A stretch of DNA of 64,000 nt from the human T2T-CHM13v2.0 reference genome, Homo sapiens, in the NCBI RefSeq assembly GCF_009914755.1, contig NC_060941.1. One strand, 5' to 3'. Shown here piece after piece: positions 1-23,871 of the stretch. A program made the position numbers and the translations under genes. How positions within the stretch are numbered: position 1 is the first letter of the stretch; each line of letters opens with the position of its first letter. The notes beneath the pieces are model-generated. The model worked only from the letters and a program-made list of their open reading frames with translations. It searched no databases and had not been told where the DNA came from.

Positions 1-1308
1 TTTCAGATCTAGGTTAGATATCTAAGTCCTCAGAAAATAGCCCAGAACATTTTGAAACCTTTTGTGAAGTTCTTTGATTTTACTTAGAGAATCTTAATCC
101 ACAAGAATTAAGTGATATGGCTTAAATGTCTGTCCAGAGCATAGGGAAACAACTCTAAAATGAAGAAAGGACAAGGGTCAAGAGAGTCTCACGGGACAGA
201 TGAGACTTGTGAGCTGAGGGCCATGGAGAGGAGATGGAGGGCACCAAAGAAGACCTGTTCAGTGTTGGGCAGGCAGAGGAGTGTAGGCAATGCCAAAACA
301 GGACTGGGCACTCACTGCCACCTACATCGTTCTGGGGTCCAAGCCATGTCCTCAACCCTTTACAGGCAACTCTAAACCATGAGGAGCTGGAGACTGGGGA
401 TGACCAGAGGGGAAGATGTTAAGTGCATGGTGTCTTGCTCTGAGTTGTACATGTTGGGGTACCTTGGGTCCCCCAGGGGTTCAGGATGTACAAGAGCAAC
501 TCAACTGCTCACTTGTTGGGGCTGAATGTGCAGAAATGTTTTTGACAGTGAGAGAGGGTGAGATGTTAGTGTTGAAGTCATACGTACAAGGAGAGATCTT
601 CAGATTAACACTTCCACCACAGAGCAGCTCTCTAATGCTGTGCTGCAGCTCCTCTGACCACATGGTGTGATGTAAATGGTCATGCCACAGCGTTCTGGGC
701 AGCACAAGTCACATTTAAACCACACCCTGGGTGAAAAGGACCATTACATCGTGTTAATCGGAGTGCTTCTAAGAAATGCTTAACTCATGAGGAGGACGTC
801 AAGAATTGGTGTTACCAAGAAGCCAAGCTTAGCTGGTACCTTCTATCAAGAACAGATCTATTTGTGAATGGCACCATGGTCATTTCCTCCTATGGAACAG
901 ATATTTCTAGTGTTGTGTTTCCATTGCACAGAAGTGACATGTAAGATGATACCCCAGAATCTTAAGTAGTTCGAGTTGTGTTTGATCCAGACCCAAATGG
1001 ACAGAATGGAATAGGGAAAGTCTGGACTATGGGAATGACAAGAATGATGGGGCCAGGCTTTTAACTGCTGTTTGATTCATTGAACATTCATAGCTCCCTA
1101 CAATATGCCATCATTGGGTTTGACTCTGGGTAATAGACATGAATATGCATGACATATGGGGTGTCTATATAGATCAGGAGCCTTAGATGCCCTTATTTTT
1201 TCACCCAGGAAGCCCACAGCTAGGAAAATATCCTACAGAAATAACCTCACTTATGGAGAAAGTTTTTTGCATACAGATGTTTGGCACAACTTATAACAAT
1301 GAAAAATT

Positions 1309-3079: not shown

Positions 3080-3745
3080 GCTGTTGGAACAGCTGGGGAG
3101 GCTATCAGAAGGTTCTGCTCAATGGGAGAAAGGCTTTATCTAAAGACCTGCCCTTGTGAGAAGGCACCAGCTAACCCAGTCTCAGGGTGACACCAGCATC
3201 TCACCTCCTCTCACTGTGGAAACCATTTCCCCACCAAGGGATCAACTGAAGCATTCTTGCAAATAGCCTGAATCTTTGTGGTGAGCTGAAGCTCTCCTGG
3301 TTTGTGCAATGCACAGCATGACACCAATATCATGATTAAAAAATTTTCCCCTTCAGAGAGGATCAGGAAAAACTAATGGGTACTAGGCTTAATATCTGGG
3401 TGATGAAATAATCTGTATAACAAACTCCCATGACATGAGTTTACCTATGTAACAAGTCTGCACATGTACCCCGAACTTAAAAGTTTAAAAAATGAAAAAA
3501 GAAACAAAATTCCTCCTCAGTCTCCCCAAGTTTATATCTTCTAATACCCCAAGGCTGCCTGTAAAGAGAAGAGATGGCTGAGACCCCAGAAGGAGGCAGC
3601 GGCTACAAGTCCTGAGTTCAGCTCTTCCCGGCAGCCATGGGAGCTCACACTCTGCCCAGCATCCTGGGGACCCCTGCAGTTGCCCTTGCTGTCCTTTTCT
3701 TCACTGAGGCCCTCTGCCCCCAGGCCCGCTGTCCCTTGTGTGAAT
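3080..3745 (+). pseudogene. Relic CCL3-like promoter and pseudo-exon 1 inside CCL18 intron 1
   Basis: 3661-3738 translates ILGTPAVALAVLFFTEALCPQARCPL versus CCL3 [26 protein letters not shown], with the ancestral ATG changed to CTG at 3664. The TATA homolog is GGCTGCCTGTAAAGAG versus CCL3 GGCTGCCTATAAAGAG. Upstream sequence is co-linear with the CCL3 promoter. This fits the known origin of CCL18 by fusion of two MIP-1alpha-like genes. Confidence 0.85.
3357..3505 (+). mobile_element. 5'-truncated L1PA (about PA12-14) 3' end
   Basis: GAGGATCAGGAAAAACTAATGGGTACTAGGCTTAATA...CTGCACATGTACCCCGAACTTAAAAG plus A-tail; imperfect TSD AAAATTTTCCCCTTCAG / AAAATTCCTCCTCAG. Confidence 0.85.
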
Positions 3746-4461: not shown

Positions 4462-4853
4462 GTAAGTGCCAGTGCTCCTGCCCACCCCTCGGGAGGGAGG
4501 ATGGGAGGTTTGGGGTGAGGTCCCCTCAGAGTACTCAGCTCTCTAAGGCCCATCAAGGTAAAGGACTCCAGGGGAGGCCCCTGCAGTGTTTTGTGACCTG
4601 GCCTGGGGCCTGCAGAGTCCTGAAGGGCCTGCCCCTGGGCAGAGGGAAGAGAGCAGACATGACAACAGGAAGTTTGCTTCCTGAGGAACCCCATCTGAGA
4701 CATTTGGGGAAGGCCTGTGAACCCCGAAGTTAAGGGGAAATTTTACGGGCACGAGGACAGGCCCTGAGATGCCTGGGACAGAGAAGGACGCAGGGGCCAC
4801 AGGATTCCCCTGATGAATTCGTCAGTTCTTAACTCTTCCTCCCTTCTCCACAG

Positions 4854-4944
4854 CCTCCTAACCAAGAGAGGCCGGCAGATCTGTGCTGACCCCAATAAGA
4901 AGTGGGTCCAGAAATACATCAGCGACCTGAAGCTGAATGCCTGA
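4854..4944 (+). CDS. CCL18: C-C motif chemokine 18, exon 3 (coding part)
   Basis: ccacag|C CTC CTA ACC...; [32 protein letters not shown] at 4942-4944. Confidence 0.98.
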
Positions 4945-5353
4945 GGGGCCTGGAAGCTGCGAGGGCCCAGTGAACTTGGTGGGCCCAGGAGGGAACAGGA
5001 GCCTGAGCCAGGGCAATGGCCCTGCCACCCTGGAGGCCACCTCTTCTAAGAGTCCCATCTGCTATGCCCAGCCACATTAACTAACTTTAATCTTAGTTTA
5101 TGCATCATATTTCATTTTGAAATTGATTTCTATTGTTGAGCTGCATTATGAAATTAGTATTTTCTCTGACATCTCATGACATTGTCTTTATCATCCTTTC
5201 CCCTTTCCCTTCAACTCTTCGTACATTCAATGCATGGATCAATCAGTGTGATTAGCTTTCTCAGCAGACATTGTGCCATATGTATCAAATGACAAATCTT
5301 TATTGAATGGTTTTGCTCAGCACCACCTTTTAATATATTGGCAGTACTTATTA

Positions 5354-8188: not shown

Positions 8189-8557
8189 CCAGGGGCCAGC
8201 AAACTATGGCCATTGGGCCCAATTTGACCTACTACCTGTTTTTGTATGGCCTGCGAGCTAAGATGTTTTTACATTTTAAGTCATTGAAAACATCCAAAAG
8301 AAGAATATTTTGAGAAATATGAAAATTGTATGAAATTGGAGTTTTAGTGTCCATAAAAAAGTTTTATTGGAATGCAGTTGGGTTTATTTGTTTCTGTATT
8401 GTTTACAGCCCACAGTCTAGCAAGGACTCCTTACCTGGAATGAATCATATTTTCATACGACAAAGCAGAGCTGAGTAGTTGTGAAAGACACTGTATGACC
8501 CACAAAACCTGAAGTAGTTTCCATTTGGTCCTTTACAGAGCAAGTTTGCCAACCTGT
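8189..8557. mobile_element. MER58-type hAT element
   Basis: CAGGGGCCAGCAAACTATGGCC...GCAGAGCTGAGTAGTTGTG...CCTTTACAGAGCAAGTTTGCCAACCTG. Confidence 0.75.
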
Positions 8558-12050: not shown

Positions 12051-12742
12051 TCAAAATGTACTCTTTGGGTCTAGACAGGACATGTTTGTTGCCTTGATCT
12101 CTTCATAGAATGGGTAACATAACAGCAGCGAGCATTCCTGAAGTTCTCTGAACTAGACTGAAATCTGCAAAGCTTGTCCCCTCAATGAGGGACCCAGAGC
12201 AAGTGGTTCAAGAGGACTAAGAGAGAACCAGTTTTTAGTGCAAGGCCCCAGCTTCTCAAATCTTGGTTTTTGAGTTAAAAATCACATACTCATACTTATG
12301 AAAATCAAAGCACAAAGAATGGAAAATGAAAAGTGGAGATCCTCATTTCTTAAAAGTTATGGTTGCCAGGGAAATCACATTTAATAGATTGGGATATATC
12401 ACACACATCAAATGTCCTTCTTATGTTTATGTAAATATATATAGCTTTTACCAAAGCAAAATATTATTATATGTACAGTTATATAATAAATATGTGGTAA
12501 TATAGATATTGGTATAGAGATACACATATGGAATGTATATTCTATATACATAGTTTTACATTAATATCTTAGATACCTTTCATTTCACTATGTATATCCA
12601 CTTCATTCTTTTCAGTAATTTTGTGTTTATTATGTGGTTATACCACGATGGTTTAAACTATTCATCTTTTAAAGAATTTATTTCTATTGGTTGTTTTACA
12701 AACAGAGCTGCAAACAACAGCAATGTGCCAACACTTTGTGTC

Positions 12743-13032
12743 TTTTTTTTTGAGACAGTGTCTCACTCTGCCACCCAGGCTGGAGTGCGGTGGTGCCATC
12801 TCGGCTTACTGAAACCTCTGCCTCCTGGGTTCAAGCAGTTCTTCTGCCTCAGCCTCCCAAGTAGCTGAGATTACAGGCGCCTTCCACCATGCCCGGCTAA
12901 TTTTTGTATTTTAGTAGAGATGAGGTTTCACCGTGTTGGCCAGTCTGGTCTCCAACTCCTGACCTCAAGCTATCCACCTGCCTTGGCCTCCCAAAGAGCA
13001 GGGATTATAGGAGTGAACCACTGCACCTGGCC
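12743..13032 (-). mobile_element. AluS
   Basis: Full Alu, antisense. Confidence 0.95.
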
Positions 13033-13744
13033 CTCCTTTGTTTCTTTAGATAGTGTTTCTTGAAATAGATTCCTAGAAATAAGATTGAAGAGTATGTAAA
13101 TTTTAAATTTTTCTACAGACTGTGTAATTTCTCTTCAAAAATGCCGATTATCAAAATGTCACTTTTTGATACTAAAAAATAGATTGTTTTAAACACACAA
13201 AGTAAGTAGGGCTTATCAAAAAGTTAATATATTTTGCATTTCTCACAAGTATGTTGAATTTCTCCCACTTGCATTTTACAGCAGGAATCCTGACTCAGTC
13301 TAACTTTCTTATACTTAAAAACATAACAGGCCAGAAGTTAGCACACATTTTCTATAGAAGGCCAGATAGTAAATACTGGTGTCTTTGTGGGTTATATCAT
13401 TTCTGTTAGAACAATGTGACTCCACCTTTGTCTTGGGAAAGCTGCAATAGATAATATGTAAAAGGGCAGGAGTGGCTGTGTTTCAACCAAACTTTATTTA
13501 CAAAACAGGGTCATGCTAGATTTGTTCTGAGGACCATAGTTTCTTAACCTCAATCTAGGCAATCCGTCAAATAATTCTGCATTCACAATAGAAGTCTTGT
13601 TGTATATATTGGCTGACTGTCTTTCCTTTCTCTAATGTTAACCACTGATTTTGTGGAGCATGGATTCTAGGGAAATAATACCCAGGTAAGATGTCTATTA
13701 CCATGTGTGTCTTATTTTTAAAAGAGTGGTTAAATTCTTATTGA

Positions 13745-14267
<523 letters not shown>

Positions 14268-14609
14268 TTAACCCTCTGAGCCAACATTTCCTCTTCTATC
14301 AAATGGGAATATTAATAATACTTAGCCCTTGGAGACATTGTTAGAATTTGAAGGACAATGAATAATTTTTAAGAGAGCTTGACCCATGAGAAAAATAAAC
14401 TTAAATGCATGAATATATATATCAAGCATGAATTTACCTAGTGCATATGCATTATACACTGGGTGCATAATATTTTATAAAATAATCCTTGTTTTATAAA
14501 GTAGTGTTTCATTATTTGGGGAGAGGCATTACCGTCATTTCCTTTCTGTTGACTTCCCCTCTTCAGAGTTTTCTACTCTTCCCCTCCCATCCCACCACCT
14601 TGCTTTGTC

Positions 14610-16860
14610 ACAAAACAAAGCCAATAGGATCACCAACAGTTTAAGACTGGTTTACTCAAAACAAATTCATTATTTTACATAGCTGAACATAGAAATGGTA
14701 AATAATGTTCTATAAATATTTGTTGGTTGACAGCTTTGGAACAATGTCCTCTAGAAAAAGCTGAACGTAGCCACCCACCTTGTATGAGAGCCACAAAGAA
14801 TAGCCATGTGCCTGAATATGTGTCAGCCGCTGTGTGACTGGAGGGGCTGAGGAAGGGGCGTAGAGGGTGTTGTGAGGTCCCTTCTGACAAGCAGTCAAGA
14901 ACGCATAGAAATACATTACAAAAATTAAATAGTCTAGATAAGTTGAAATGCATGTTAAGAAGAGTCCCAGAGTGTGGTTGCTTGGGTAGGGGTAGGTTCA
15001 GGAATTGAAGGGACGTCCCTAGGGCCTGGGTCCCTGCTTCCTAATCTGCCACAAACGTAACAGTGTCTTGTTGCTTCCAGGTCACTCAGGGATTTGACTC
15101 TGAGATCAATGATGCACTTGGCACCAGAACTTGGTGGGGTTGGCACAGACATGCCAGCCTCAGCCACTTTCATTCTGGAAGCTGTTAAAAGAGACAGTTA
15201 TAAAAATTGAGGAATCAGCAAGGGAATTCCTGGTCCCATGCTGCCTTCCCATCTCTGTCTTGGCAAGCATAGGGCCTATCCACTTGTTCAAGATTCTTTG
15301 CCCAACCTCAGCTCCCTAGACTTTACCTCAGTGGCTCAGGCGGTCTCCTCAGGCAGCCTCCTCCTGCTAACACTTCCTCCTCTCTTCCCTCTGCCAGGGG
15401 CAGCTCTTCCCTGGTTCCCTGCAGACCCCAGGTCAGGCCAGAAAACACCTCTATGGCCCTTCCCTGTGTCCCACCACCAGATAGGACCTCAAAGGCCTGG
15501 GGTCCCCAGGATGGCCCTCAAACCGACTGGTGCCCTTGCAGGCTGCCACCCTCCAAGTCCTGCTTCTCTCCAGAGATGGGCAGAAGCACCAGCCCTCGCC
15601 TGGCACCAGCAGTGAGTCTCATAATTGCCATTTACCATTTTGCTAGGGGGCTTCTGGGGATCCTAGGAAAAGCAGCAGATGCCTGGGTGCTTGGGGACCT
15701 GGGCATTCTGAGGGAAGGAGCAGCGTGACCCTGAGTCATTTTTCACTGGGGACAAGTGAGCCAACTCCTTCTACCCAGTGATAAAATCAGAAGGAAGTAG
15801 ATGGAGACAGCACTGTTCAGGGGATGATTTGGGGATGAGAAGAACTGGCAGGAAGTTGGAGATTTGGGGGTGAGAAGAACCAGCAGGAAGTTGGGGATTT
15901 CTTGTTTCCCCACTTTTCCCTTCCATTTCTGTTTGAGCCTTAGGTTTGGCCTCCATCTCCCTCTGTAGAAATTGCAGCTAGTTAGATAGTCTGCCTCTTA
16001 TTCCAGCTCTACTGGGGGAACATAATATGGTCTAAGAAGAAATTTTTCCAGCAAGAGGCCATCTCTGCAAATCACCTGTGAGGCAGACCTGTGGCAATTT
16101 TATGACTCAGCTGGCCACCAGGAAGCGATTGTAGCTGGGTTCTGCCCCTTATTGAAACCTACTCAATGTTCTCCTTCACTAAGTAGGACAAGACCGTACC
16201 CTGCCTTTAAGGTTTATAGAATAGAAAGTGAAAACACTTTGGGGAAGAAAATCTTCCTGAACAGATAGCCCAGGGCATTTTGAAAATCCCTTAGGAAGTT
16301 CTCTGTTTCACTTGGGTACCTCTGTCCTTGGACTTTGGCGATGTGGTTTGACCCCAGCCAGAGAGTGCAGGGAACAACAGCAAAAGGCAGGACAAAGACT
16401 GACTCGTGAGAGGAGGCCCAGGAACAGGGGGGCATCGTGAGAGAGGAGGACGTGAGGGCCCAAGAGTGTGAGCAGAAGAGGATAGGACTTGGGCACTCAG
16501 TCACCAGCTGTGGGGTCTGAGCTGTGTCCCCTTCTCTAAAGAGGTAAGCCCTGAGTCATGGGAAGATGGAAACCGGGGCTCATGAGACAGGATGTTTTTT
16601 AAGCACCGTGGTGTCTTGTTGACTTGCACATGCAAGGGGGTCTTGGGTAACCACAGGGCTCAGGGTATTTGCAGGAACAGTTCAAGTGCTCACTTGTCTT
16701 GGGGCTGTTTGTGGGGAAGTGGTTTCCACAGCAACAGGAGGTGAGATATTGGTGTTACCCCAGACCACACTTAGCTACTTCCTTCTCACTAAAGCTCTGT
16801 AGTCATATTTTCCCTGGCAGAGCAGAAACTTCTCTGTTATCCCACAGCTGTTCTAACGGT
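14610..16860 (-). pseudogene. Degenerate CCL3-like CC-chemokine pseudogene (promoter, 3 exons, 3'UTR)
   Basis: Exon 1 relic ~16406-16500 (VLL/fs/LTMPPCSWASS; ATG region deleted; donor GT lost). Exon 2 at 15600-15707 reads HPGICCFS*DPQKPPSKMVNGNYETHCWCQ, with CC-x22-C spacing identical to CCL3. Exon 3 at 15086-15181 reads FQNESG*GWHVCANPTKFW/fs/AKCIIDLRVKS. The 3'UTR has GTTAAGAAGAGTCCCAGAGTGTGG versus CCL3 GTTAAGAAGAGTCCCACAGTGTGG. Both cag acceptors are retained. Confidence 0.9.
15826..15900. repeat. 35-bp tandem duplication containing ETS cores
   Basis: GATTTGGGGATGAGAAGAACTGGCAGGAAGTTGGA / GATTTGGGGGTGAGAAGAACCAGCAGGAAGTTGGG. Confidence 0.9.
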
Positions 16861-20228: not shown

Positions 20229-22162
20229 ACAGCCTTGTCAAAAAGACGTGTTTGTTGCTGTACCCTCATTATATGAAAGCCATCATGGCATCAAAACAGT
20301 ATAAGCCAGGTTGAGCTCTATCCTCTCTGCATCAACTCAGAATCCCTACCAGAAAGTGGTTGTGATGGATGGAATATCACCCATCAAAGAATAGGGTAAG
20401 ATGAGACCAGAGAGGTAAGCTATGCAAGCTAATCAGAAAATAACTCAAAGTTTTAAAAGTGCAGAATATAAAAAGGAAAAACCCTCATTCCTAAAAAAAA
20501 AAAAAGCCTCATTTCCTCAAAGAAATCAGTTAGCTATTTGATGTGTATCTTTCCAAATATTTGCCTATGTAAATATATATGTATATATGGCATTTAAAAA
20601 TAAAACAAAATAATATACTTTACAGATAGTTCCATAGCATATGTAGAGAATATATATGCATATACTGAATGTAATTAGGTCTGCCTTTTACATATAATAT
20701 TATGGACACTTTCCACAGTTATAGATGTGTGCTACTTTTTTTTTACTGACTTCAGAATATTCCACTGATGGACATCTTAATCCTCTACTGATTAATCCCC
20801 TACTGATGACTGTTTGCATTTCTTTGCTGTTTGCCAACCACACTGCAAAGAATATCCTCATGTCTACATATCTTATCTTTTGGCAGTGTTTCTATGAAGC
20901 AGATTCCTAGAAATGGGATCAGGTCAAATGGGATGTAGTTCACATAGTATATGCATTTTAATATTTGCTAAGTAGTAGTGTTTATGCTTTAAAGAGTTGG
21001 AACACTACAATTCTAAACATGTTTGGACACAAAAAATAGATTATTTGAAACAAAATGAAATAAGCATAGCTCGTAAAAATTAACACGTTTGGTTTTCACA
21101 CAAATATTTTGAATTTCTCTTTCTTCTGCAAAAAGGACCCTAGCTTAGTATGGATTTCTTGTACAGATAATGCAAACAATCCATCTATTAAATAACTTAC
21201 CTTTCACAGTAAACCTATAGACAGCATCCTGCTCCACACAGAAGCTGATTGTCTTTTCCTTCTCTAACATTAGCTATTTATTTTGTAGAGTGTAGATTCT
21301 AGAGAAATAATGTATAATACACCTGTTGCCATATGCAGAGACTTACCACATTTAGAAAACAGTGGTGAATTCTATTGACAGTGGCTCTCAGTCATTAACA
21401 TGCTATGGAACACCTCATGAGCTTGATAAAAATATCAGTTCCCAGGTCTACACTTAAAGATCCTATTTAAGTGGCTTCAACAATCACTGCTCAAACACTC
21501 TATGTCAACTCAGAATCCTGACAGGAAGTGGTTGCAATGGATAAAGTATCATCTGTTAAAGAATGGGGTAAGATTTGAGTATAGGCGGGTCATACTTTGG
21601 GAAATAACTTGGTCAATGGTTAACAGCATAGTCTGTAGTTCAATAAAAGTCCAGTTTTGGAACACAATTGACCGTTTACGTGCTGTGTAACCTCAGCCAA
21701 GTTGTCTAACCTTTCTGAGCCCTGGGTTACTTTTCTGTCAAGTGGAGGTATTAATAGTACCTAAGCTGTACTATTGCATTGGTAAGATTAAATGAGCAAT
21801 GTATAAAAAGCACTCAGTAGGAGGAGTAAGCCTCAACAATGTAAATAATTGCTATTAAGAGCTTGATTCATCATGAATATGCCCTACAGAATACTCTGCT
21901 TAATGGTGGCCATTCGAGTAGTGAATTCTCCTAGAGCATGCATGTTATGATTTGAGTTATAACATATTCGTAGTTTCAATGTTCCAGAACTGTGTCTCCG
22001 TTGTAAAGTGGATAACTCTGTGGTAGCCCTCCCCATCTCTCCCAATTTCCCTCCATTTCACCTCTTCCTAATCTTTGCCTATGATTCCTCTTAACCAGTG
22101 ATTTTGATTTGCCAGAAAAACAAAACCAAACTCAATACTGGTTTACCTTTTAAAAGAGCATC

Positions 22163-22359: not shown

Positions 22360-22410
22360 AAAATAAATTACAAAAACTAAATAGTATAAATAAATTAAAA
22401 TTTAAGTTAA
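22360..22410 (-). promoter_or_regulatory. AU-rich element cluster in CCL3 3'UTR
   Basis: Several ATTTA pentamers on the - strand (TAAAT on +). Confidence 0.8.
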
Positions 22411-22557
22411 GAAGAGTCCCACAGTGTGGCTGTTTGGCAACAACCAGTCCATAGAAGAGGTAGCTGTGGAGGTCACACGCATGTTCCCAAGGCTCAGGCT
22501 CCTGCTCCTCCCCACTGGGCCCACCGAGGTCGCTGGGCCTCGAAGCTTCTGGACCCC

Positions 22558-23183: not shown

Positions 23184-23871
23184 CTGTGGAGAAAGGAAGA
23201 GAATGAGCCCGAGTCACAGCTCAGAAGAAAAGGCCAGGCAGCTTCTGATCCCCGAGCAGTTGAGGAAGGCAGGCTTGCTCAGACCAAGTGACTGGAAGGC
23301 ATTTGGGCATTTTTGCTGAGAAATGTCTCTTTGTTTCTGTCTGTATCCTTCTTTCTCCTTGACTCTTCATAGTGGGTTCTCTGTTTCTCTGTGTGATCCA
23401 GATACCTGAACGGACTGTTCTCTTATCTCAGTTCTCTTCAGGGAATTTTGTCTGGTTCAAGAAGTCATACCCCAACCCAAGAGAAGCCTTGGACATCTCT
23501 CATAAGACATCCAAGGGACAGAGCTCCTGGGAGACCTAGAGTGAGCTGGAGAGTGAACAACATACCCCACTGGGAAGTAAGCAGCCCTGGATTCTGCCTC
23601 TTGCTAACTGATTCGTTTCGAACCCTGTTTTTCTATCTGTAAAAGGGACTGTAACTCCCCTGCCCCTGCCTAGATTCTCATACCTGGAGACTAGGGGGCT
23701 AAGACCCCTTCTAGAGATAAAAATAAAAGTCTTAAAGAGAAAGACCAAGATGTTTGGCAGCCCTTTAAGAAGTTCTCTTTTCTCTTGGGGGCTTTTAGGC
23801 CACAAGAAAAGATTGATGTGGTCTAACCATGGCCAGAGAGTGGTGATACCCACAACGAAACTCAGACTCAC

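What the first reader, a model, noticed from the sequence alone, without database searches (positions are those of the whole stretch)
14610..16860. Hidden three-exon CCL3-like chemokine pseudogene between CCL18 and CCL3
Seen: on the - strand, a full CC-chemokine architecture is co-linear with CCL3, covering promoter, exon 1 (~16406-16500), exon 2 (15600-15707), exon 3 (15086-15181), introns and 3'UTR. Exon 2 reads PGICCFS*DPQKPPSKMVNGNYETHCWC with exact CC-x22-C spacing, and exon 3 reads F....VCANPTKFW/AKCIIDLRVKS. Lesions seen: ATG region deleted, TATA lost, exon-1 GT deleted, Tyr->TAG at 15663-15665, exon-2 donor GT->GC, a TGA and frameshifts in exon 3. Knowledge: the CCL3 pseudogene I know of (CCL3L2/LD78gamma) is a near-identical truncated copy, whereas this one is far more diverged. 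I do not recall an annotated gene here, but I cannot check. Inference: an ancient lost member of the MIP-1alpha family that may be intact in other mammals.
Basis: partly seen in the sequence, partly recalled or inferred. Interest (0 to 1): 0.8.

Follow-up and report, generated by a model that had tools for sequence, protein, structure and literature searches.

The report
Old broken CCL3-like chemokine gene copy
This stretch is a real but long-dead duplicate of the CCL3 chemokine gene, apparently already drawn as a pseudogene on published maps of the human chemokine cluster, so it is an ordinary evolutionary relic.

Summary
On the minus strand, window ~16800-14650 is co-linear with CCL3 and with the CCL18 exon 2-3 half, from promoter to 3'UTR. 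Co-linear BLAST chains score 342 and 409 bits; the best of 100 dinucleotide shuffles reached 113 and 93.

It is an unprocessed pseudogene, because promoter and both introns are homologous. CDS-equivalent columns are as diverged from CCL3 (55% identity) as non-coding columns (55%), whereas CCL3-CCL18 keep 78% in coding columns. So no coding constraint is left.

The genome holds four copies. Three lie in the CCL3L segmental duplication and are ~95.5% identical to the window copy. All share the disabling lesions, except that the three have GT where the window has GC at the exon-2 donor.

It is not new. Shibata et al. 2013 (PMC3749542, Fig. [quoted passage not shown] 2003. This is the only chemokine-like relic I found between CCL18 and CCL3. 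RefSeq does not list it.

Whether an intact orthologue survives in other mammals could not be tested. Interest is low.

The parts
16513..16800 (-). Promoter-equivalent. The TATA-equivalent at 16540-16535 reads TTTAGA.
   Evidence: blastn: CCL3 24181-24062 matches 16668-16547 at 68%. CCL18 intron-1 promoter relic 3156-3237 matches 16789-16708 at 78%, E 4e-11. Alignment.
16406..16512 (-). Exon-1 equivalent. The ATG-equivalent reads TTG (16463-16461) and is followed by a ~14-nt gap. The donor GT is lost through a 2-nt deletion at 16405.
   Evidence: MAFFT alignment. Placement rests on co-linearity between the promoter HSP and the intron-1 HSPs 16367-16340 and 16316-16288. Identity inside the exon is only about 50%.
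15708..16405 (-). Intron-1 equivalent. It holds a 35-nt tandem duplication at 15826-15900, and the acceptor AG is kept at 15709-15708.
   Evidence: TRF.
15600..15707 (-). Exon-2 equivalent (108 nt). CC codons at 15677-15672, TAG in place of Tyr at 15665-15663, third Cys at 15605-15603, and a 14-nt deletion near the 3' end. The donor-equivalent at 15599-15598 reads GC.
   Evidence: Alignment; translations. The TAG is shared by 4 of 4 genomic copies. The donor is GC in 1 of 4 copies and GT in 3 of 4.
15182..15599 (-). Intron-2 equivalent. The acceptor AG is kept at 15183-15182.
   Evidence: CCL18 intron 2 (4569-4687) matches 15466-15346 at 74%, E 1.4e-10. CCL3 22887-22850 matches 15410-15373.
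15086..15181 (-). Exon-3 coding equivalent. Premature TGA at 15162-15160, fourth Cys at 15147-15145, a 6-nt insertion, a 2-nt deletion and a 1-nt insertion. The original stop position is kept at 15088-15086.
   Evidence: Alignment. CCL18 exon 3 (4868-4957) matches 15161-15073 at 70%. The TGA and the frameshifts are shared by 4 of 4 copies.
14651..15085 (-). 3'UTR equivalent. The block 14985-14909 is 84% identical to the CCL3 3'UTR. The poly(A)-signal equivalent reads AATGAA at about 14671-14666.
   Evidence: blastn E 1.7e-19; alignment.
13164..14650 (-). Downstream flank that still belongs to the ancient duplication. It is interrupted by an Alu at about 13740-14065.
   Evidence: CCL3 flank 21763-21675 matches 14324-14236. 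CCL3 flank 21119-21022 matches 13264-13164. Alu family hits.

Best explanation
This is an ancient unprocessed (DNA-duplicated) pseudogene of the CCL3/CCL18 (MIP-1alpha) branch of the CC chemokines.

A tandem duplication copied at least 3.6 kb: promoter, three exons, two introns, 3'UTR and about 1.4 kb of downstream flank. The copy then lost its TATA box, start codon, both splice donors, reading frame and poly(A) signal. It has since drifted without coding constraint, so it makes no chemokine.

Much later it was carried along when the CCL3-CCL4 block was segmentally duplicated. Each CCL3L unit therefore has its own copy about 6 kb downstream of its CCL3-like gene.

Shown: the homology, the lesions, the absence of coding constraint, the four copies and the shared lesions. 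Inferred: the order of events and the rough ages.
For: - Homology is co-linear over promoter, introns, exons and UTR, and lies far above shuffled controls.
- Intron and promoter homology excludes a retrocopy.
- There are disabling lesions at every functional signal.
- No chemokine ORF exists. Of the 8 ATG ORFs of at least 50 aa overlapping the region, none is the chemokine frame.
- In 246 CDS-equivalent gap-free columns, identity to CCL3 is 0.549 and to CCL18 0.573. In 1871 non-coding columns the values are the same, 0.552 and 0.572. CCL3-CCL18 have 0.780 coding against 0.622 non-coding.
- Four copies lie on chr17 of this assembly. The three in the segmental duplication are 99.5-99.7% identical to each other and 95.5-95.7% identical to the window copy.
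- TAG, TGA, the frameshifts, the missing ATG and the missing TATA are shared by 4 of 4 copies, so inactivation predates the segmental duplication.
- The literature places a CCL3-ps beside CCL18 (PMC3749542 passages).
Against: - Protein-level searches do not recognise it. Pfam IL8 gave 0 hits for the exon-2 and exon-3 read-throughs, and the tblastn exon-2 row had E 7. Family assignment therefore rests on DNA co-linearity and the cysteine spacing.
- Trees do not resolve where it branches. Bootstrap was 52% in the two 4-taxon trees and 33-65% in the 7-taxon 5'-region tree.
- One 77-nt 3'UTR block is 84% identical to CCL3, while flanking aligned columns are 53-57% identical. Pure neutral drift does not predict this. 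I read it as an old short gene-conversion tract, which is an inference and was not tested.
- Transcription and regulatory activity were not testable here.
Confidence: 0.93

Rival explanations
1. The relic is dead as a gene but has been reused. It could act as a regulatory element for CCL3/CCL18, or, in the segmental-duplication copies, as a source of exons for transcripts of the truncated CCL3P1 (CCL3L2) gene.
For: - The three duplicated copies keep AG and GT around the exon-2 equivalent.
- One copy (chr17:37360403-37362658) lies about 4.6 kb upstream of the 5'-truncated CCL3 copy on the same strand. That truncated copy's homology to the window ends at 23210.
- PMC2628739 (passages) reports that CCL3L2 transcripts start from two novel upstream exons, whose positions I could not find.
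- The 84% 3'UTR block stands out from its surroundings.
Against: - All three frames of the exon-2 equivalent carry stops in 4 of 4 copies.
- Differences between the window copy and the duplicated copies are no rarer in the exon equivalents (7 differences in 210 nt, my count) than overall (about 4.4%).
- The hub's RefSeq table lists no functional element here.
- No expression data were available.
Confidence: 0.08
2. The resemblance is chance, or comes from a shared interspersed repeat, and not from gene duplication.
For: Protein-level scores are insignificant. Identity in most aligned columns is only about 55%.
Against: - Chain scores of 342 and 409 bits exceed 100 of 100 shuffles, whose maxima were 113 and 93.
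- HSPs have E values of 1e-10 to 1e-19 and are strictly co-linear across about 2.4 kb.
- NCBI masks no repeat of 100 nt or more inside 14610-16860 (hub table).
- In the own-genome search, 9 of 9 matches were the four copies, the four CCL3/CCL3L 3'UTRs and CCL18.
Confidence: 0.01
3. It is a processed (retrotransposed) chemokine pseudogene.
For: None found.
Against: The promoter, intron 1 and intron 2 are homologous to those of CCL3 and CCL18, and both acceptor AGs are in place.
Confidence: 0

Closest known systems
'CCL3-ps' beside CCL18 on maps of the human MIP region (Nomiyama et al. 2003, J Interferon Cytokine Res 23:37, as cited in the Fig. 4 legend of Shibata et al. 2013, PMC3749542)
   Same: It is a CCL3-derived pseudogene flanking CCL18 in the 17q12 CC cluster. 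The candidate is the only chemokine-like relic I found between CCL18 and CCL3.
   Different: Identity with the published item is inferred from position only. The figure itself is not held, and the 2003 paper is not in the library. I saw no published coordinates, lesion list or copy count.
CCL3P1 (formerly CCL3L2 / LD78gamma)
   Same: It is a non-coding CCL3-family copy in the same cluster.
   Different: CCL3P1 is a recent 5'-truncated copy. Its homology to the window ends at 23210, just upstream of exon 2, and it is about 93% identical to CCL3 DNA. The candidate is full length, about 55% identical, and much older.
CCL18 (PARC), reported to be a fusion of two MIP-1alpha-like genes (Tasaki et al. 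1999, seen only as cited in PMC3749542 and PMC7663205)
   Same: It appears to come from the same set of similarly diverged CCL3-like duplications. Its intron 1 carries a dead exon 1 (3652-3723) with the ATG-equivalent changed, much as the candidate's is. Non-coding identity to the candidate is 57%.
   Different: CCL18 keeps working exons 2 and 3 and lies on the opposite strand. The candidate has no working exon.
CCL3 (MIP-1alpha)
   Same: Same strand, same three-exon layout, same cysteine spacing, and a co-linear promoter-to-3'UTR alignment.
   Different: CCL3 is intact, and each of its exons scores as a Pfam IL8 match. The candidate's exon read-throughs do not.

Membership tests
CC chemokine gene (Pfam IL8, PF00048; CCL3/CCL18 branch) | Three-exon gene layout co-linear with family members, including the introns | tested here: met
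   Chain scores of 342 and 409 bits against shuffle maxima of 113 and 93.
CC chemokine gene (Pfam IL8, PF00048; CCL3/CCL18 branch) | Four-cysteine pattern: adjacent CC, a third Cys 22 residues later, and a fourth Cys in exon 3 | tested here: met
   CC at 15677-15672, third Cys at 15605-15603, fourth Cys at 15147-15145. This holds only in a reading that passes a TAG and a TGA.
CC chemokine gene (Pfam IL8, PF00048; CCL3/CCL18 branch) | Profile-HMM match of the encoded domain | tested here: not met
   0 families at E<=10 for the exon-2 and exon-3 read-throughs with X at the stops. The CCL3 exon controls gave E 4.5e-9 and 4.1e-8.
CC chemokine gene (Pfam IL8, PF00048; CCL3/CCL18 branch) | Intact start codon, signal peptide, open frame and splice donors | tested here: not met
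   ATG reads TTG with a ~14-nt gap after it. There are TAG and TGA stops and frameshifts. The exon-1 donor is deleted and the exon-2 donor reads GC.
Unprocessed (duplicated) pseudogene | Homology extends into the promoter and introns of the parent family | tested here: met
   Promoter, intron-1 and intron-2 HSPs.
Unprocessed (duplicated) pseudogene | No coding constraint: exon-equivalents are as diverged as non-coding sequence | tested here: met
   Identity 0.549/0.573 in CDS-equivalent columns against 0.552/0.572 in non-CDS columns. The CCL3-CCL18 control gave 0.780 against 0.622.
Unprocessed (duplicated) pseudogene | No transcript or protein product | not testable with these tools
   No expression data are reachable here.
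Processed pseudogene (retrocopy) | Introns absent, poly(A) tail, unrelated flanks | tested here: not met
   Both introns are present and homologous, and the flanks are homologous to the CCL3 flanks.

The most novel reading that the evidence does not exclude
The relic marks a separate, old paralogue of the CCL3 family, one that branched off at or before the CCL3/CCL18 split, and not a recent dead copy of CCL3. A true orthologue may survive as an intact, expressed chemokine gene at the syntenic position in some non-primate or basal primate lineage. Humans would then have lost a chemokine that other mammals still use.
Probability: 0.15. Interest if true: 0.35.

Novelty: already known. Interest (0 to 1): 0.15.

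Why it matters
It matters little for biology. It is one more relic of the repeated birth and death of CCL3-like genes in the 17q12 cluster, a process already described in the chemokine-evolution literature.

It has three practical uses:
- RefSeq does not list it, so it could be added as four pseudogene copies.
- The copies sit inside the copy-number-variable CCL3L units. They offer extra paralogue-specific markers, such as the GC/GT donor difference, for telling the CCL3 locus from CCL3L units.
- The relic can confuse exon-level homology searches.

If an intact orthologue exists elsewhere, it would add a lineage-specific chemokine loss to the human list.

Tried and rejected
- Protein-level detection failed. 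Exon-wise tblastn gave only an E 7 row for exon 2 (the output was cut, so the CCL3 exon 2/3 rows were not seen). Pfam gave nothing. Protein similarity alone cannot carry the call.
- Branching order could not be placed. 4-taxon ML trees on 1665 gap-free columns and on 1422 non-coding columns gave conflicting topologies, each with 52% bootstrap. A 7-taxon tree of the 5' regions had supports of 33-65%.
- I considered a model in which a convergent pair (CCL18-half plus candidate) was duplicated in tandem, making the inverted relic in CCL18 intron 1 the candidate's sister. BLAST sums favoured it: 153 bits to the candidate against 45 bits to CCL3. In the multiple alignment, however, that relic is closer to CCL3 (0.628) than to the candidate (0.578), and the tree is unresolved. 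I dropped the model.
- I gave no absolute date for the old duplication. K2P of 0.66-0.73 on forced global alignments is near saturation.
- Literature was only partly reachable. Nomiyama 2003, Schutyser 2005, Shostakovich-Koretskaya 2009, Colobran 2010 and Zlotnik 2006 are not held. PMC3568907 and PMC3342878 say nothing about this relic. The supplement of PMC3749542 lists only guinea-pig Ccl3 a/c names for the terms searched.

Full report
**What is there**

I read window 17000-14500 on the minus strand. I compared it with the three annotated chemokine genes of the window.

Pairwise blastn of the CCL3 gene with flanks against the candidate gave a strictly co-linear series of matches:
- CCL3 promoter 24181-24062 with 16668-16547 (68%).
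- Two intron-1 pieces, 23842-23815 with 16367-16340 and 23789-23762 with 16316-16288.
- Intron 2, 22887-22850 with 15410-15373.
- The intron-2/exon-3 junction, 22708-22608 with 15238-15135 (69%).
- 3'UTR 22437-22361 with 14985-14909 (84%, E 1.7e-19).
- Downstream flank 21763-21675 with 14324-14236.
- The offsets run smoothly from 7513 to 7439.

Searching the candidate against the whole window added matches to the CCL18 locus in gene orientation:
- 3156-3237 with 16789-16708 (78%, E 4e-11).
- CCL18 intron 2 (4569-4687) with 15466-15346 (74%, E 1.4e-10).
- CCL18 exon 3 (4868-4957) with 15161-15073 (70%).

**Control**

The best co-linear chain scores 341.7 bits against CCL3 and 408.7 bits against the CCL18 exon 2-3 half. 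One hundred dinucleotide-preserving shuffles of the candidate gave means of 50.1 and 48.5 and maxima of 112.7 and 93.4. The own-genome search returned 9 matches. All 9 are copies of the element itself, CCL3/CCL3L 3'UTRs or CCL18 intron 2. The hub's table shows no masked repeat of 100 nt or more inside 14610-16860. The homology is therefore real and is not due to a repeat family.

**Anatomy and lesions**

A four-way MAFFT alignment of the candidate, CCL3, the CCL18 exon 2-3 half and CCL4 places the features as follows.
- Exon-1 equivalent at ~16512-16406. The TATA-equivalent (TATAAA in CCL3) reads TTTAGA at 16540-16535. The ATG-equivalent reads TTG at 16463-16461 and is followed by a ~14-nt gap. 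Two bases are missing at the donor, so no GT remains.
- Exon-2 equivalent at 15707-15600. The acceptor AG is kept. The Tyr codon after CCFS reads TAG at 15665-15663, and 14 nt are deleted near the 3' end. The donor-equivalent reads GC.
- Exon-3 coding equivalent at 15181-15086. The acceptor AG is kept. A CGA-equivalent reads TGA at 15162-15160. A 6-nt insertion, a 2-nt deletion and a 1-nt insertion break the frame. The original stop position is preserved.
- The poly(A)-signal equivalent reads AATGAA.
- None of the 8 ATG ORFs of at least 50 aa in the region is the chemokine frame.

**What the protein level says**

On its own it says very little. The exon-2 reading matched CCL18 exon 2 at 27% over 26 residues with E 7 (that output was cut, and I did not see the CCL3 exon 2/3 rows). 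Pfam's IL8 model found nothing in the exon-2 and exon-3 read-throughs with X at the stops. The corresponding single exons of CCL3 scored E 4.5e-9 and 4.1e-8. The call therefore rests on DNA co-linearity, splice-site positions and cysteine spacing.

**Kind of pseudogene and constraint**

Homologous promoter and introns make it an unprocessed, DNA-duplicated copy. Identities over the 2117 columns free of gaps in the candidate, CCL3 and the CCL18 half:

| Pair | 246 CDS-equivalent columns | 1871 non-coding columns |
|---|---|---|
| Candidate - CCL3 | 0.549 | 0.552 |
| Candidate - CCL18 half | 0.573 | 0.572 |
| CCL3 - CCL18 half | 0.780 | 0.622 |

The two live genes show coding constraint and the candidate shows none. 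CCL4, an older paralogue, is 0.42-0.46 identical to all three in non-coding columns. That figure serves as a near-baseline.

The candidate is slightly more distant from CCL3 and CCL18 than they are from each other. However, the ML trees do not resolve the order (52% bootstrap). I therefore call it a member of the CCL3/CCL18 branch that split at about the time of, or somewhat before, the CCL3/CCL18 split. K2P values of 0.66-0.73 are near saturation on forced alignments, and I give no absolute date.

**Copies**

The assembly holds four copies on chr17: the window copy and three at 37134907-37137148, 37346862-37349117 and 37360403-37362658.
- The three are 99.5-99.7% identical to each other and 95.5-95.7% identical to the window copy over about 5 kb.
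- Each lies about 8 kb below the 3'UTR match of a CCL3-like gene.
- The duplicated homology with the window starts at about window 12523. The relic therefore sits near the proximal edge of the CCL3L-CCL4L duplication unit.
- The missing ATG and TATA, the TAG, the TGA and the frameshifts are shared by 4 of 4 copies. Only the exon-2 donor differs, GC in the window copy and GT in the other three.
- Inactivation therefore predates the segmental duplication. With a primate rate of roughly 1e-9 per site per year (recalled, not computed here), 4.4% divergence suggests an age of the order of 20 million years. This is a rough inference.

**An unexplained detail**

The 77-nt 3'UTR block is 84% identical to CCL3, while the neighbouring aligned columns are 53-57% identical. 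CCL3-CCL18 and CCL3-CCL4 are only 57% and 47% identical in the same columns. A generally conserved UTR element would be shared by the live paralogues. I therefore favour an old short gene-conversion tract between CCL3 and the relic. This is an inference and was not tested.

**What is known**

I ran three full-text searches:
- 48 papers held the terms and 20 were listed.
- 8 papers held the terms and 7 were listed.
- 36 papers held the terms and 25 were listed.

Only one paper uses 'CCL3-ps': Shibata et al. 2013 (PMC3749542). I read passages of it. The Fig. [quoted passage not shown] 2003. [quoted passage not shown]

The 2003 paper is not held, and figures are not held. The identification of the candidate with the right-hand CCL3-ps therefore rests on position. 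In one search the interval between CCL18 and CCL3 gave, apart from Alu hits, only the candidate and three short flank matches (13164-13264, 20332-20402, 8404-8440). RefSeq, as given by the hub, has no gene row for it. It lies inside intron 2 of the plus-strand lncRNA CCL3-AS1. I could not look up GENCODE or HGNC.

**Verdict**

The element is a real, correctly described and long-dead CCL3/CCL18-family pseudogene. It is apparently already on published cluster maps, though it is missing from RefSeq. The new details here are the lesion catalogue, the lack of constraint, the four copies and the one copy-specific donor difference. Whether an intact orthologue exists in other mammals remains open, because no other mammalian genome could be reached.

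Noticed in passing
window 1-573, continuing upstream to about -231 (locus L013), minus strand, inside CCL18 intron 1: An inverted CCL3-like 5' half (promoter, exon-1 equivalent and part of intron 1). It is co-linear with the candidate: 573-300 with 16756-16484, 85-37 with 16313-16265, and -150..-231 with 16073-15993. It also matches the CCL3 promoter (495-279 with 24187-23975, 66%). If real, a third CCL3-like gene fragment lies inside the 'two-gene fusion' that made CCL18. Its closest relative is unresolved. I could not check whether Tasaki et al. 1999 describe it.
   Followed up: partly
upstream of the window, loci L011-L013: about -7227..-8201, and about -24484..-25213 (window coordinates, minus strand): More CCL3-like relics lie on the far side of CCL18. 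Exon-1 and exon-2 equivalents are at -7227..-7283 and -8039..-8201. An intron-2/exon-3 equivalent is at -24484..-25213, beside lncRNA LOC105371746. They may be one gene split by about 16 kb of inserted DNA, or two relics. They are probably the left-hand 'CCL3-ps' of the literature.
   Followed up: partly
window 3506-3723 (+), and -1024..-986 (+) in L013: The dead exon 1 and promoter of the second CCL18 half lie in CCL18 intron 1 (CCL3 24110-23885 at 66%, with the ATG-equivalent changed). An exon-2 remnant of the first half lies about 650 nt downstream of CCL18 exon 1. Both fit the published fusion model.
   Followed up: partly
chr17:37344719-37373000 of the same assembly (L014-L016): Two tandem units lie 13.5 kb apart. 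The first ends at the equivalent of window 23210 and so holds a CCL3 copy with exons 2-3 but no exon 1 (presumably CCL3P1/CCL3L2). The second is complete. A copy of the relic lies about 4.6 kb upstream of the truncated gene on the same strand, with AG and GT kept around its exon-2 equivalent. PMC2628739 reports two novel upstream exons for CCL3L2, whose positions I could not find. Whether they fall in this relic copy is an open lead.
   Followed up: partly
window about 12523: This is the proximal edge of the homology between the CCL3 locus and the three CCL3L duplication units. Identity is 88-90% over 12523-14062 (Alu-rich) against about 95% over the relic.
   Followed up: no
window 14909-14985 (-) and 22361-22437 (-): A 77-nt 3'UTR block is 84% identical between the relic and CCL3, and is sharply bounded by 53-57% flanks. 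It may be an old gene-conversion tract.
   Followed up: partly
window 15826-15900: A 35-nt unit is repeated 2.1 times (90% matches) inside the relic's intron-1 equivalent.
   Followed up: no
window 20332-20402 and 21505-21574: There is a short 80% match (71 nt, same orientation) between two places in the CCL3 downstream flank, about 1.2 kb apart. Its nature was not examined.
   Followed up: no
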